Part shown: positions 11,036 to 14,981 of the stretch, one piece after another | How positions within the stretch are numbered: position 1 is the stretch's first letter | Layout of the letters: the number at the start of each line of letters is the position of its first letter | Source of the DNA: Nematocida ausubeli | Lineage: Eukaryota | Assembly (NCBI RefSeq): GCF_000738915.1 | Contig: NW_026515638.1 | Span: 84,882 to 148,881 of the forward strand | Reading direction: 5' to 3' | Length of the DNA stretch: 64,000 nt | The notes under the pieces: generated by a model | The model's database searches: none | Told to the model about the DNA's origin: nothing | What the model saw: the letters and a program-made list of their open reading frames with translations, nothing else | Program-made: the position numbers and the translations under genes

Positions 11036-12199
11036 TTAATATTCCAAGAAATAAGGAATACCTGCTAATAAGGCACTCATCCCATATAAAGTCGCATTTA
11101 CTACAACCCGAATATAATTGGACTTAGTCACCCTACAGCCAGGCGCATAAAATCCTTCATATAGCCTAATTACAACAAGCATACTAATAAATATGCATAA
11201 AAATACACATAAAAACAAATATATGCAAATATGTGCAGTTCTGAGGTTATAAAGGAAATCCTTCATGAAAAATATTCCAGGCACTAAGATGCACATTATA
11301 ATGCAAGCACACCTTATAAGAACGTATTTCAATTGGGAAATTCTTCCATTTCCTTCTGAAAATATTTTATAATTATTTTCCGTATATGAAAGTACTAGAG
11401 TAGATATAAGTAATAGACTAAATACAACAGAAATCTCACTTAATGTATAATTATTCTGTGTGATACCCGGGATAAACGAGAATAAAATAGACCTATTATA
11501 TCCAGACTGTTGTAAATATCTATTTCTGTTTTGGTCTCCCATCACAGTACTCTTAGTTCCACTTATAATATTCAGAATAAATATGCAAATTATATATATA
11601 TGACTAATTACAACAGGAATAGAGAATATTCTCAAGTTAGTCACAGGTATATCTGAATCTCCCATAAGACCCTCATTTAATACATTCTCATCCTGTGATA
11701 TTTCATATACTTCACTCGTACCAGGTACACCATCACATACTTCATTCCCACCTTCTCTCATACTCCTTCCCTGGTACCTCGGGTTATATCGGGTTATCTC
11801 CGTCTTGTTCCCGTATATTTTTCGTAAATTAAACATCAGAAAATAATAAACGCACAAATTGCAGACACTCACCAAGCACAGCCATATATTTATATACAGA
11901 AGGAAAATTGAAATTCCAAAATAAATACCCTTCAGCTGCAGGAAATGCATAATAAATGCCAGTGGAATATTTATGAAGAAATTATTCTTTGCGGATTCCT
12001 GGAACTGAAGGGCATTCCAATACTCGCATGTGAATATGAAGGTGTCTGCTAGTCTGGTCTTAATTTCTTGTTTTTTTTCATCTTTTTGTCTCTCATGGAA
12101 ATGCATACAATTATAAGGGGTGCCCATCAGGATCTTATCCAGATTATTTGGATCCTTTGGGGGTGCATTCTCTTGGGTCTCCTTTCCTTGGGAATTCAT
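11036..12199 (-). CDS. Multi-pass membrane protein of unknown function
   Basis: 387-aa ORF with about 7 hydrophobic segments. Confidence 0.7.
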   Translation of the reverse strand: MNSQGKETQENAPPKDPNNLDKILMGTPYNCMHFHERQKDEKKQEIKTRLADTFIFTCEYWNALQFQESAKNNFFINIPLAFIMHFLQLKGIYFGISIFLLYINIWLCLVSVCNLCVYYFLMFNLRKIYGNKTEITRYNPRYQGRSMREGGNEVCDGVPGTSEVYEISQDENVLNEGLMGDSDIPVTNLRIFSIPVVISHIYIICIFILNIISGTKSTVMGDQNRNRYLQQSGYNRSILFSFIPGITQNNYTLSEISVVFSLLLISTLVLSYTENNYKIFSEGNGRISQLKYVLIRCACIIMCILVPGIFFMKDFLYNLRTAHICIYLFLCVFLCIFISMLVVIRLYEGFYAPGCRVTKSNYIRVVVNATLYGMSALLAGIPYFLEY

Positions 12200-12251
12200 T
12201 TATTTTTTAACAGAGATTTTACTTTTATTCTTATTTTTATTTTTATAAAAA

Positions 12252-12524
12252 GTGGATTAAGTCTTGTAAGTTTTAGGAAGAAGTGGATTAAATTGTGGTA
12301 AAGTGGATTAAGTCTTGTCGGGTTGTTATGAAATAAGATCAAATTGTATATAAGGTGGATTAAGTCTTGTAATTTATTCGGACAAAACTTATGGCAGGTG
12401 GATTAAGTCTTGCACATCCCATAATAAAGTGTATTAAGTCTTGTCAAGTTTATAAAAAGCGGATTAAGTCTTGACAAAGTGGAAAAAGTCCTGACATTTT
12501 CTTAATAAGGCGGATTAAGTCTTG
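12252..12524 (+). repeat. Array 1 of the 15-bp motif GTGGATTAAGTCTTG (9 copies, forward)
   Basis: Copies start at 12252, 12283, 12303, 12355, 12398, 12429, 12459, 12479 and 12510. Confidence 0.95.
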
Positions 12525-12671
12525 GATAACCCGAGCCCCTTGATATACCATATCCCATTGTATAATAAAAAAGCCATCTACTTACATATCCCATACGGAA
12601 CCAATATAGACCACTCTCACACCCAGAGACATAAGAATTTAATACTCTCGGGTTATTTATTTTTTATTCCC

Positions 12672-14981
12672 ATGCATAGTAAGTGCATTGCCGTAATAGG
12701 CGGATATAAAGCAGGCAAGACATCTGTCCTAAAGAACCTTTGCATAAATCACACAGAAGACTTAACCAAGCACGGTTTCGGAACAATTCTTCATAAAAAA
12801 GAAACACTTTCCGGTCTCTTGGAATTTGTCGAATTTTCCATCCCCCCAGACACTCCATTCCCATACGATCTAAAAATATTTGATGCAATCTTCTTAGTCA
12901 TAGATATATGCGCATATGAAATAGATGAGATAATTAAGATAACCCGATATAACCCGAGGTCACCCATTATCATACTATTAAACAAAGTTGATGCGATATT
13001 TAAATACGGCACAAAGAGAGCAACAAGAATATGCAAAGAAATAATGCAGGAGATTGAAGAAGTAATAGGTAATGGGAATAAATCAAAACCCGATATAACC
13101 CGAAATAACCTGTTTCAGCCCGATATAACCCGATATAACCCGAATAACCCGAATATAATATTTTGCATTGGAAGTTCATTTGGCTTCGGGATATTCTGTG
13201 GGAATGTCTGGGAATGGAAGGAAAAAGAGAAAAATATTCAGGAAATAATTGAAAATATACAGAAGGTAATGGAATATACAGAGATGCACTCCAGTGACAG
13301 AAAGAGACTATTCCGGAAATTAGGATATTCGGGTTATATTTCTAACGGAAAAATTAAAAATATAAAAAAAATTAGTGAGATATGCGTAAATGCTGTGGGA
13401 ATATTATCTTTACAGAAAATTTTGATCGAAGTTTTCTTAAAGGTCGAAACCCGATATAACCCGAGGTATCAAGAAGAGGAGATGGGAATAGGTGGGAGTA
13501 AATATATGGGGAGAGTATGGGATAATACTGGATTGGGTGAAATTTGGCAGGATAAGACTATGGAAAGTACGGGTTATTCAGCAAAAACCAACAAAAAACT
13601 GAAAAAAACAGAAACCCGATATAACCCGAGGTACCATAAAGAAGCAACAAGAGACAGTGAAAATGGACTAAACCCTCACATACACCTTCAGAACCACATA
13701 TATTCAACCAGACCCAGTGAGACCACTGAAACTAACCATCTTGACAATAATTTATTAAAAACCAAAAATATCCAGAATTCCTGTAGTGCAACGGTAATAG
13801 AGGTGCTTAAATCAGAAGGACCAGATAGAATAACCGTTCTATTAAAGGTGCACAATAAAAATATCACAAATATACGTTATAAAGGCATATTATTTAATAT
13901 AATTAAATATAACGGAAATATAACAGAAATTAACCGTATATATATACTAGATATATACGTAGACAAAGAATCGTATGGTTTAATCATAAAATTATATTTT
14001 GACCTTCGGGTTAAATCGGGTTATCTCCCAGGAATATCTGTTACTTTCAAGGGGGTACCACAGGAGATGAAAACAAAAATTATTGAAAAAATATTTGGAC
14101 ATTTTTCCGTTAGAATTAATTGGGAAAATAACGGTGAAAAATATTTTAACTTAAGAATATCTGCTTTAGGGCCAATATCCCTTCAGAATTTAATGAAAGA
14201 CGTGCATATGTTAATGAGTTCGCATAATTTGCAATTCGAGATTATTACGCCCATTTACAATAGGAGATTGACTGTAAAAGAAAAAATGAGTTTTTTATTA
14301 CCCGTCGGGGGCGACGAGCTTAGGATAGAAGTGGACTCAAACCTTATTTATCAAGGAATGCACAGGAGGATTGAGATTTGCAAGGAAAATAAAATTTTTA
14401 TTTTAGTTCCAGAGAATATTGCAGTGGAAAATCCTGAATTAATTGGGATATTTTCGAGTATCGTAAAGGATTTCCATGAGAATGTGGGTGAGGATAGGAA
14501 GATTGCGTGTATATCCTTTTTTATATCTGAAATTCGCATTAAATCTGGCCATCTCGGGTTATATCGGGTTTTGATGCAAGAATCCATCAGGATATTCAGA
14601 TCTTGGATGTCACGATTAGTTTATAGTCAAATTGAGTGCCATATTCAAATGGAGATAGTGTTCCTGTTGAAAATGAACTGTCCCCTTCCCTCAAATGACA
14701 CTTTCATCCAAAAAATAGCCCATTTTAGTACAAAATCAGTCATAAAACGGATAATAAAAAAGCATAACGGTGTTTCATTTGGGGTCAGGATGCTGCATGC
14801 AGGTTCCCATGGCAAGGTGACCTGTATTCTGCCCATCTCAGAATATACTGAATTTATGTCCACATTTAAAATATTCTTCAGTGAATTTACGGCCTACACA
14901 ATAGGCAGTGATTACAACGCGAATTCAACAGCAGAAAGAAGCGACACAATTAGTGAAGGGTTATTCTGGAAAAATAAATAG
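12672..14981 (+). CDS. Highly diverged EF-2-family GTPase (Snu114- or Efl1/Ria1-like)
   Basis: G1 GGYKAGKTS and G4 NKVD. Domain III-like ISALGPISLQNLMKDV...ITPIYNRRLTV. Domain V-like IKRIIKKHNG...VTCILPISEYTEF. ATG at 12672 follows CCC. Confidence 0.55.
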   Translation: MHSKCIAVIGGYKAGKTSVLKNLCINHTEDLTKHGFGTILHKKETLSGLLEFVEFSIPPDTPFPYDLKIFDAIFLVIDICAYEIDEIIKITRYNPRSPIIILLNKVDAIFKYGTKRATRICKEIMQEIEEVIGNGNKSKPDITRNNLFQPDITRYNPNNPNIIFCIGSSFGFGIFCGNVWEWKEKEKNIQEIIENIQKVMEYTEMHSSDRKRLFRKLGYSGYISNGKIKNIKKISEICVNAVGILSLQKILIEVFLKVETRYNPRYQEEEMGIGGSKYMGRVWDNTGLGEIWQDKTMESTGYSAKTNKKLKKTETRYNPRYHKEATRDSENGLNPHIHLQNHIYSTRPSETTETNHLDNNLLKTKNIQNSCSATVIEVLKSEGPDRITVLLKVHNKNITNIRYKGILFNIIKYNGNITEINRIYILDIYVDKESYGLIIKLYFDLRVKSGYLPGISVTFKGVPQEMKTKIIEKIFGHFSVRINWENNGEKYFNLRISALGPISLQNLMKDVHMLMSSHNLQFEIITPIYNRRLTVKEKMSFLLPVGGDELRIEVDSNLIYQGMHRRIEICKENKIFILVPENIAVENPELIGIFSSIVKDFHENVGEDRKIACISFFISEIRIKSGHLGLYRVLMQESIRIFRSWMSRLVYSQIECHIQMEIVFLLKMNCPLPSNDTFIQKIAHFSTKSVIKRIIKKHNGVSFGVRMLHAGSHGKVTCILPISEYTEFMSTFKIFFSEFTAYTIGSDYNANSTAERSDTISEGLFWKNK

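What the first reader, a model, noticed from the sequence alone, without database searches (positions are those of the whole stretch)
11772..14570. A 10-bp-period DNA motif is written into unrelated coding sequences in both orientations
Seen: the 24-mer AACCCGATATAACCCGAGGTACCA is identical at 13613-13636 (+, GTPase gene) and 11772-11795 (-, membrane-protein gene), and both encode TRYNPRY. Related copies lie at 12941, 13088-13150 and 13448. The reverse complement occurs in the same GTPase gene at 14007-14024 and 14553-14570, where it encodes different peptides (RVKSGY, LGLYRV). It also occurs in the 16923 gene (17388-17434) and in intergenic DNA (about 8850, 9778, 10438, 10686, 17735, 45770, 48000, 52376). 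Because frame and strand vary, the constraint is on DNA rather than protein. TAACCCG differs by one base from the yeast Reb1 site TTACCCG (known). A Myb-type general regulatory factor site, or a tiny insertional element, is inference.
Basis: partly seen in the sequence, partly recalled or inferred. Interest (0 to 1): 0.75.

Follow-up and report, generated by a model that had tools for sequence, protein, structure and literature searches.

The report
Telomere-like repeat overwriting microsporidian genes
A ten-base DNA repeat, likely the chromosome-end (telomere) sequence of a tiny worm parasite, is scattered in both directions through a 16-kb stretch of its genome, where it is probably being copied again and again into intact genes that merely tolerate it.

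Summary
Real, and bigger than reported. The window is Nematocida ausubeli, a microsporidian. The unit TATAACCCGA (G-strand TTA-TATC-GGG) has 17 exact copies in a low-GC 7.4-23.7 kb domain and 3 in the other 47.7 kb (shuffles 0.0 and 0.2). Synonymous shuffles do not explain it. Its TRYNP/PDIT-type peptides are absent from 5 of 5 orthologues of the EF-2-like GTPase: two sites lie in in-frame insertions, others are near length-neutral replacements. One perfect copy is a 3-4-base polymorphism whose motif allele looks derived. In 4 of 4 sequencing runs the bins holding the two best-preserved tandem clusters drew 5- to 10,000-fold extra depth, mostly from contigs lying wholly on the stretch, so a high-copy array likely exists elsewhere. 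N. parisii carries the same dimers. Best reading: an unreported Yarrowia-style 10-bp telomere repeat whose short internal copies arise by templated repair or conversion. Position at chromosome ends is not shown. Two other motif families share a ~10.15-bp spacing in the same domain, a centromere candidate. Not a Reb1 site, not a mini-transposon.

The parts
13613..13636 (+). 24-mer: motif dimer plus degenerate third unit, in the GTPase-like ORF (TRYNPRY), inside an ~80-aa N. ausubeli-only insertion
   Evidence: pLDDT <50 for residues 261-369
11772..11795 (-). identical 24-mer in the membrane-protein ORF (TRYNPRY); spacer polymorphic Y/N
12941..12957 (+). motif dimer replacing, without a gap, the loop before the NKVD (G4-like) strand
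   Evidence: ITRYNPRSP against ILKKYKKSL in P0043
13087..13152 (+). largest cluster, five cores in mixed 10- and 9-bp units, in a 22-26 aa in-frame insertion; its bin has the highest depth peak
13326..13339 (-). single perfect copy that is a clustered 3-4-base polymorphism; motif allele Y-S-G-Y, other allele Y-F-N-Y, 4 of 5 orthologues YF
13448..13464 (+). motif dimer at the edge of the ~80-aa insertion
14006..14025 (-). reverse dimer (RVKSGY), spacer polymorphic K/I
14553..14570 (-). reverse dimer (LGLYRV), spacer polymorphic Y/N
17386..17438 (-). five degenerate 10-bp units in the 16923 ORF; two units are likely closer to consensus in the more distant record P0060
8847..8879 (+). intergenic cluster (two 9-bp units then 10-bp units); its bin has the second depth peak
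9774..9803 (-). intergenic degenerate trimer
10437..10463 (-). intergenic cluster of three 10-bp units
10685..10705 (+). intergenic dimer, second unit degenerate
17735..17750 (-). intergenic copy joined to family C repeats
45769..45790 (+). outlying intergenic dimer
47989..48020 (-). outlying intergenic trimer of 10-bp units
52375..52392 (+). outlying intergenic copy
12672..14981 (+). host ORF, 769 aa, highly diverged EF-2/EFL1/Snu114-like translational GTPase; 17 motif cores
   Evidence: (GTP_EFTU in 5 of 6 aligned members, not in this one)
11036..12199 (-). host ORF, 387 aa, hydrophobic protein of unknown family; no orthologue outside N. ausubeli found
16923..17576 (-). host ORF, 217 aa, unknown family
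7342..23732 (.). domain: GC 31.7% (38.0% outside), coding 57% (75% outside), non-coding DNA periodic at ~10.15 bp, holds motif A and families B (AAAGTGGATTAAGTCTTGTC) and C (ACTAA[AT]TA[CT]AACAG)

Best explanation
The motif is a real, strand-symmetric DNA repeat, TTATATCGGG with a 9-bp variant TTATTCGGG, that is likely the Nematocida telomere repeat, and its short internal copies are probably mutational footprints written by templated repair or gene conversion and then tolerated by the genes. Shown: the copies are N. ausubeli additions to an old gene, some inserted, some overwriting in place, and they still segregate between strains. Inferred: (1) a high-copy tandem array of the unit exists in the parasite genome and sits at chromosome ends; (2) at nicks or breaks where flanking bases already resemble the repeat, telomerase, telomeric RNA/DNA or another copy serves as template and patches in 1-5 units; (3) repeated conversion among variant units makes the 2-base spacer hypervariable; (4) selection only filters: frames stay open, large additions fall in disordered loops, and sense-strand copies break before the third unit because a perfect array reads N-P-I-stop; (5) the 16-kb AT-rich domain collects them because breaks are frequent or selection is weak there, possibly near the centromere.
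For: Unit shape: TTA + 4 bases + GGG, like the Yarrowia 10-bp repeats TTNNNNAGGG whose spacer varies (PMC6746865, passages). Depth: bins 12842-13175 and 8834-9167 reached 155345 and 72960 (X4), 10037 and 7649 (X6), 110276 and 39360 (X7), 292 and 82 (X9), against flanks near 15, 15, 1030 and 16 (ratios). Only 155 of 4468 (X4) and 181 of 2949 (X7) laid contigs fit partly, and 1% and 4% of what was laid ran on into unlike sequence. The peak tracks the best single-copy depth over two orders of magnitude (X7 ~1000x, X9 ~15x; X4 shows joint contigs at 2762-2887x), which favours the parasite over host DNA (inference). Orthologues: 17 motif-derived 4-mers in P0001 against 0, 1, 0, 0, 0 in P0043-P0047; alignment. 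Gain in progress: 13330, 13331 and 13333 differ together in 3 of 4 runs; 2 of the 6 protein records covering the site read F-N, 4 read S-G; 4 of 5 orthologues have YF; the other allele already matches the repeat on both sides, the in-register feature cited for telomerase-made ITS (PMC7215372 section 12). Spacer: 9 amino-acid variants against 1.08 expected (P=2e-6), three of them the same Y/N change at separate copies; core 2 codons, one event, against 4.5. N. parisii has an intergenic TTAGGGTTATATCGGGTTA and a coding dimer (PMC13745600 supplement rows). Stop-limited frame.
Against: No chromosome end was seen: no genome is held, so terminal position, strand polarity, unit length (9 or 10) and the RNA template are all untested. 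Summed contig depth is not a copy number, and the runs hold 97-164 Mb of contigs, so other organisms' DNA is present; the ratio varies from 18 to over 10,000. Reported microsporidian telomeres are 4-6 bp (TTAGGG, TTAGG, TTAG, TAGG), so a 10-mer would be an exception. Length-neutral overwriting is not the classic ITS pattern. A conserved core with a free spacer is equally what a binding protein would impose. Telomerase alone does not explain why families B and C share the ~10-bp spacing, and they are not in register with motif A (1 of 6, 1 of 7 and 0 of 4 pairs in phase). Four copies within 1.9 kb share a non-consensus GAGGT tail, which suggests copying from each other; yet 3' flank similarity does not fall with distance overall (p=0.16). 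The outgroup comparison is protein-level at 21-27% identity, so local alignment near the insertions is uncertain.
Confidence: 0.5

Rival explanations
1. The copies are selected binding sites for a Myb-type protein (possibly the telomere-binding protein itself, doing double duty), packed at one-helical-turn spacing to organise chromatin or a centromere in this domain, even at a cost to the proteins.
For: Core shows no excess change while the spacer is free (2 against 4.5; 9 against 1.08). Dimers at 10 bp; domain-wide ~10.15-bp phasing of [TC]AAC words (272 of 598 pairs in phase against ~120 expected; 24 of 108 against ~22 outside). The motif is shared with N. parisii. Tay1 tolerates spacer changes, and its homologues act at non-telomeric loci. 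Cuomo 2012 reports five intergenic elements including a modified CCC motif.
Against: The core deficit is not significant (P=0.18). 24 of the 38 domain copies are inside ORFs, at a density similar to non-coding DNA (24 per 9306 bp against 14 per 6995 bp). Sites are not conserved in orthologues. Degenerate units sit next to perfect ones. Intergenic copies also occur between convergent genes (49944).
Confidence: 0.25
2. The high-copy array is an internal satellite (centromeric or subtelomeric), not the telomere, and copies spread by DNA template switching and gene conversion with no telomerase step; A, B and C are three products of one local 10-bp-phased duplication process.
For: 9 of 10 intergenic spacers in the domain have their best period at 10.0-10.4 bp, against 0 of 10 tested elsewhere. 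B and C are as enriched as A. The gained copy has a 14-bp inverted match about 190 bp away. Four coding copies share a GAGGT tail.
Against: Only A draws extreme depth; B and C bins reach about 3-8x in X7. A was found in the N. parisii supplement while the 10-11-mers typed for B and C were not (small, non-random sample). A contains the telomere core. There is no distance decay of flank similarity. The 14-bp match is generic motif and a 15-bp match lies 39 kb away.
Confidence: 0.17
3. A tiny mobile element inserts a fixed 24-bp unit into genes.
For: One exact 24-mer pair in unrelated genes; two sites lie in lineage-specific insertions.
Against: 1-5 units per cluster with unrelated flanks; several copies replace sequence without length change; one arises by a 3-4-base change.
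Confidence: 0.03
4. The depth peaks come from host or bacterial DNA in the runs, so the telomere reading has no footing, and the window's copies are an unexplained local low-complexity family.
For: Runs contain much non-parasite DNA. Arrays of the 9-bp unit occur in unrelated metagenome contigs (up to 10 units, GC 0.31-0.68 among the 25 longest).
Against: Peak height follows parasite-like depth. The 8820-8900 cluster has no real match in 5426 E. coli genomes (2 hits at E=8). The motif is in N. parisii's own assembly.
Confidence: 0.05

Closest known systems
Yarrowia-clade 10-bp telomere repeats 5'-TTNNNNAGGG-3' bound by the two-Myb protein Tay1 (PMC6746865, passages read)
   Same: 10-bp unit made of the canonical TTAGGG interrupted by four bases; variation concentrated in the spacer.
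   Different: Here TTA-TATC-GGG with a 9-bp variant; terminal location, template and binding protein not shown; unrelated lineage, so convergent if true.
Short interstitial telomeric sequences inserted at double-strand breaks (PMC7215372, abstract and section 12 read)
   Same: A few units at internal sites, absent from orthologous loci, in-register flanking bases, presence/absence polymorphism within a species.
   Different: Here very dense (17 cores in one 2.3-kb ORF), both orientations, read as protein, often length-neutral overwriting instead of insertion, and concentrated in one domain.
Reported microsporidian telomeres TTAGGG / TTAGG / TTAG / TAGG (PMC13174016, PMC11592040, PMC10759460, PMC10158259; passages read)
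   Same: Telomerase is encoded in microsporidia; mixed-length units are known (N. muscidifuracis TAGG/TTAGG).
   Different: Those are reductions to 4-6 bp; this would be an expansion to 9-10 bp. No Nematocida telomere motif appeared in the passages read.
Telobox / general-regulatory-factor sites
   Same: Short telomere-related words at internal sites, potentially read by Myb-domain proteins.
   Different: Not promoter-restricted, not conserved in position between species, mostly coding.
Candidate regional centromeres of microsporidia (PMC13174016 section 11 part 1; PMC10158259 passages)
   Same: Gene-poorer, repeat-dense internal block; local GC drop as described for A. locustae and fungi.
   Different: No retroelement was recognised in the ORFs scanned here; built from 10-bp-phased short words; still 57% coding; no CENP-A data.

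Membership tests
Telomerase-type telomeric repeat | Short unit with G-rich/C-rich strand asymmetry and TTA...GGG core | tested here: met
   Consensus TATAACCCGA = TTATATCGGG on the other strand
Telomerase-type telomeric repeat | High-copy tandem arrays in the organism's own genome | tested here: inconclusive
   Depth peaks of 5- to 10,000-fold in 4 of 4 runs, mostly from wholly fitting contigs; source organism inferred, depth is not copy number
Telomerase-type telomeric repeat | Arrays at chromosome ends, G-strand running towards the end | not testable with these tools
   No genome held; no Nematocida contig among 93 metagenome loci
Telomerase-type telomeric repeat | Matching template in telomerase RNA | not testable with these tools
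   Rfam finds only a tRNA in the window; rest of genome unavailable
Short ITS inserted at double-strand breaks | Repeat-less orthologous or allelic locus | tested here: met
   5 of 5 orthologues lack the peptides; one site has a motif-less allele
Short ITS inserted at double-strand breaks | Target bases in register with the repeat | tested here: inconclusive
   Seen at the one site with an allele pair (13326-13339); n=1
Short ITS inserted at double-strand breaks | One-step insertion with end-joining junction marks (deletion, duplication, random addition) | tested here: inconclusive
   Two sites lie in insertions, others are near length-neutral; outgroup DNA not available
Reb1-type general regulatory factor site | Match to TTACCCG | tested here: not met
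   1 exact site against 38 TAACCCG in 64 kb
Reb1-type general regulatory factor site | Promoter-restricted, positionally conserved | tested here: not met
   24 of 38 domain copies are coding; not kept in orthologues
Myb-type binding site (any) | Purifying selection on the core | tested here: inconclusive
   Core 2 against 4.5 expected, P=0.18; spacer 9 against 1.08
Myb-type binding site (any) | Protein binding in vitro or in vivo | not testable with these tools
   Needs EMSA or ChIP
Miniature insertion element | Constant length and fixed ends | tested here: not met
   1-5 cores per cluster with unrelated flanks; substitution-only gain
Miniature insertion element | Target-site duplication | not tested
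   No empty-site DNA from outgroups
Regional centromere | AT-rich, gene-poorer, repeat-dense internal block | tested here: met
   GC 31.7% against 38.0%, coding 57% against 75%; periodic repeats
Regional centromere | CENP-A occupancy; one per chromosome | not testable with these tools
   Needs ChIP or Hi-C and the whole assembly

The most novel reading that the evidence does not exclude
The 16-kb domain is the Nematocida centromere, and it is built inside live genes: a 10-bp telomere repeat and two other words are continually written into it at nucleosome-turn spacing, overwriting codons in place, so a telomere-derived template acts as a targeted mutator of coding sequence and one Myb-type protein may read both chromosome ends and centromeres.
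Probability: 0.15. Interest if true: 0.88.

Novelty: new variant of a known kind. Interest (0 to 1): 0.62.

Why it matters
Nematocida is the main laboratory model for microsporidia, yet no telomere motif or centromere position for it turned up in the searches run here. This gives a concrete candidate for each, testable on existing long reads in an afternoon. A 10-bp repeat would reverse the 6-to-5-to-4-bp reduction described for the phylum and parallel Yarrowia. A polymorphic, length-neutral gain of a telomere-like word inside an intact ORF points to templated overwriting as a source of protein change in these fast-evolving parasites, and warns that peptides such as TRYNPR in their proteins are DNA footprints, not functional motifs.

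Tried and rejected
Whole-genome k-mer count: no genome held. No RNA holder was listed above a small share, so expression of the host genes was not examined. Metagenome scan for three tandem units: 93 loci, none with a tblastn hit (E<=1e-3) to the session's proteins, only motif-level DNA matches; uninformative for Nematocida. Orthologues outside N. ausubeli for the membrane protein (atlas hits 0.79-0.82 are within chance) and the 16923 protein: none found, so the insertion test rests on the GTPase alone. Local-copy test by 3' flank similarity: p=0.16. Long-range register of motif-A clusters: no consistent phase, R 0.16-0.47 with 13 clusters per strand. A common register of A with B or C: not seen. 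Hairpin: 13400-13660 folds no better than shuffles, z=-0.5. Structured RNA: only tRNA-Arg. Assembly artefact: rejected, the peptides recur in 7 of 7, 5 of 5 and 4 of 4 database records where covered and contigs of 4 runs span several copies. Control 8-mers in the N. parisii supplement gave no occurrences, but rows there are repeated and the call skipped the first 50 places, so I use only the distinct loci seen (at least 6) and no rate. Earlier findings on this genome, relatives or sequence: none. Literature: searches gave no Nematocida telomere motif; the Cuomo 2012 supplement (Fig. S4, five intergenic motifs) could not be read and may already show this word, and file 5 of PMC13174016 is a picture that was not searched.
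Full report
Source. Cluster look-ups put every named member of 9 of 9 found clusters in Nematocida ausubeli, a microsporidian parasite of Caenorhabditis (1 of the 10 proteins asked for was not in the collection). No whole genome is held, so all counts are for the 64-kb window.

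Observation. The consensus unit is TATAACCCGA with a 9-bp variant; 52 AACCCG cores fall in 38 clusters of 1-5, spaced mostly 10 bp. AACCCGA occurs 48 times against 4.4 expected. Synonymous shuffles give 1.23 against 16 observed in the GTPase ORF and 2.08 against 24 in all domain genes, but 1.81 against 4 in genes outside (300 shuffles each). Exact 10-mers number 17 in 7400-23700 and 3 in the remaining 47.7 kb, against 0.0 and 0.2 in 30 block shuffles. The feature is DNA-level and strongly regional.

Host genes. The 769-aa ORF is a very diverged EF-2/EFL1/Snu114-type GTPase: GTP_EFTU hits 5 of 6 aligned members but not this one, the profile's best PDB match is EF-2 at 3e-7, and the model (mean pLDDT 55) matches EF-2 and Snu114 at 1e-12 to 1e-10 with low TM-scores. 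Which paralogue it is was not settled. Five orthologues were found: N. sp. AWRm79 (clustering with ERTm5), N. minor, N. major and two unnamed. They are 21-27% identical to it and 23-43% to each other. The 387-aa and 217-aa ORFs have no family and no relatives outside the species in my searches.

Are the peptides additions? Yes. P0001 has 17 four-residue words of the translated repeat; the five orthologues have 0, 1, 0, 0 and 0. The five-core cluster sits in a 22-26 aa insertion and the 24-mer in an ~80-aa insertion, both low-confidence loops in the model. The 12941 and 14006 dimers and the 13326 copy align with little or no gap, so they replaced sequence in place. A perfect sense-strand array reads N-P-I-stop, which explains why coding copies on that strand break at the third unit.

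Still changing. At 13330, 13331 and 13333 three of four runs carry other letters together (40 of 294 rows shown). Two of the six protein records covering the site read F-N where the window reads S-G; N needs a fourth change at 13332, which I infer. Four of five orthologues have YF here and the fifth YY, so the motif allele is likely derived: a 3-4-base change completed a perfect copy between flanks that already matched the repeat. Across three genes, motif codons vary in 15 of 104 cases against 84 of 1269 elsewhere (p=0.009; the frameshifted tail of P0007 was left out). With P0060 added, 9 variants hit the 2-base spacer (1.08 expected, P=2e-6) and 2 codons, one event, hit the core (4.5 expected, P=0.18). 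Three spacer variants are the same Y/N change at separate copies. This suits conversion among variant units, and equally a binding protein that ignores the spacer.

A high-copy source. Laying four runs (X4, X6, X7, X9; three organism labels, two studies; 4 of the 24 listed) on 8500-18500 gave two peaks, in the bins holding the 13087-13152 and 8847-8879 clusters: 155345 and 72960, 10037 and 7649, 110276 and 39360, 292 and 82, over flanks near 15, 15, 1030 and 16 (baselines read by eye). Most laid contigs in X4 and X7 fit wholly (only 155 of 4468 and 181 of 2949 partly; 169 of 610 and 157 of 333 in X6 and X9), which is what short contigs made of the repeat would give, not unique contigs with one copy. 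The tool warns that summed depth is no copy number and that other organisms count too. The peak scales with parasite-like depth (X7 against X9; X4 shows joint contigs near 2800x), E. coli has no match to the 8820-8900 cluster, and N. parisii's own assembly holds an intergenic TTAGGGTTATATCGGGTTA, a coding dimer and single copies (PMC13745600, supplement rows). The unit is TTAGGG with four bases inserted, as in Yarrowia (PMC6746865, passages). I put about 0.65 on it being the telomere repeat. Whether the array is terminal, and whether its unit is 9 or 10 bp, was not resolved.

The domain. 7.4-23.7 kb has GC 31.7% against 38.0% and 57% against 75% coding. Family B (GACTTAATCC, 25 of 25 copies non-coding and inside the domain) and family C (45 of 46 non-coding copies inside) are as enriched as motif A. 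Non-coding autocorrelation peaks at 10, 20, 30-31, 40-41, 50-51 and 60-61 bp; the best period is 10.15 bp, and 9 of 10 domain spacers peak at 10.0-10.4 against 0 of 10 elsewhere. That this is the nucleosomal helical period is recalled, not from a call. A, B and C are not in a common register. The block fits the general description of a regional centromere in PMC10158259 and PMC13174016 (passages and section 11 part 1), but nothing here tests CENP-A.

Mechanism and rivals. Best: telomere-type repeat, internal copies made by templated repair or conversion, filtered only for open frames and tolerated loops (0.5). The template could be telomerase RNA, telomeric RNA or DNA, or another copy; PMC7215372 (abstract and section 12) describes the first two for mammalian ITS, and short-range template switching is recalled. 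Against purely local copying, flank similarity does not decay with distance (p=0.16), though four nearby copies share a GAGGT tail. Rivals: selected Myb-type sites (0.25), an internal satellite without telomerase (0.17), foreign DNA behind the depth peaks (0.05), a mini-element (0.03).

Novelty. ITS and spacer-expanded telomere repeats are known kinds. I found no Nematocida telomere motif in ten searches or in passages of PMC3514677, PMC5423893, PMC10393165, 10.1101/2025.05.12.652816, 10.64898/2026.01.30.702766, PMC13745600, PMC11592040, PMC10759460, PMC13174016 and PMC13589560. The Cuomo 2012 supplement with five intergenic motifs was unreadable and could already show this word as a promoter element. 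What appears new is the candidate 10-bp repeat, its density inside intact ORFs, in-place overwriting caught as a polymorphism, and the phased domain.

Noticed in passing
window 12249-12525, 14980-15371, 16600-16860, 17970-18224, 23015-23135: Family B, consensus AAAGTGGATTAAGTCTTGTC, spaced 20/31/51 bp, in alternating orientation, only non-coding; loose contig ends suggest further clusters elsewhere in the genome.
   Followed up: partly
window 8640-8740, 15875-16550, 17680-17940, 19030-19930, 22770-22970: Family C, ACTAA[AT]TA[CT]AACAG, spaced 20/30 bp; its TA[CT]AACAGGA half is 7-8 of 10 identical to motif A and its core resembles a Myb site (recalled).
   Followed up: partly
window 23733-26794: A DEAD-box helicase, tRNA-Arg and an HMG-box gene border the domain; the HMG clusters with NERG_01188, named in Cuomo 2012 as part of the candidate mating-type locus.
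   Followed up: partly
window 18257-22724: Lowest GC3 in the window (0.24) in the 18257 ORF and the 899-aa TPR ORF, next to the longest spacers of the domain; possible centre of the AT trough.
   Followed up: no
window 12672-14981: EF-2/EFL1/Snu114-like GTPase with eroded G motifs, only 21-43% identical between Nematocida species; one database record has a frameshifted C-terminus.
   Followed up: partly
window 16923-17576 and 11036-12199: Against the NEAUS03-labelled records these two motif-bearing genes are the most diverged of nine compared (86% and 93%; others 95-100%).
   Followed up: partly
window 26795-27732 and 7460-7760: TAGTAGTA-rich low-complexity blocks flank the domain on both sides, without the 10-bp period in the 26795 spacer.
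   Followed up: no
window 3811-7341: FG-repeat nucleoporin-like ORF with a beta-rich N-terminus.
   Followed up: no
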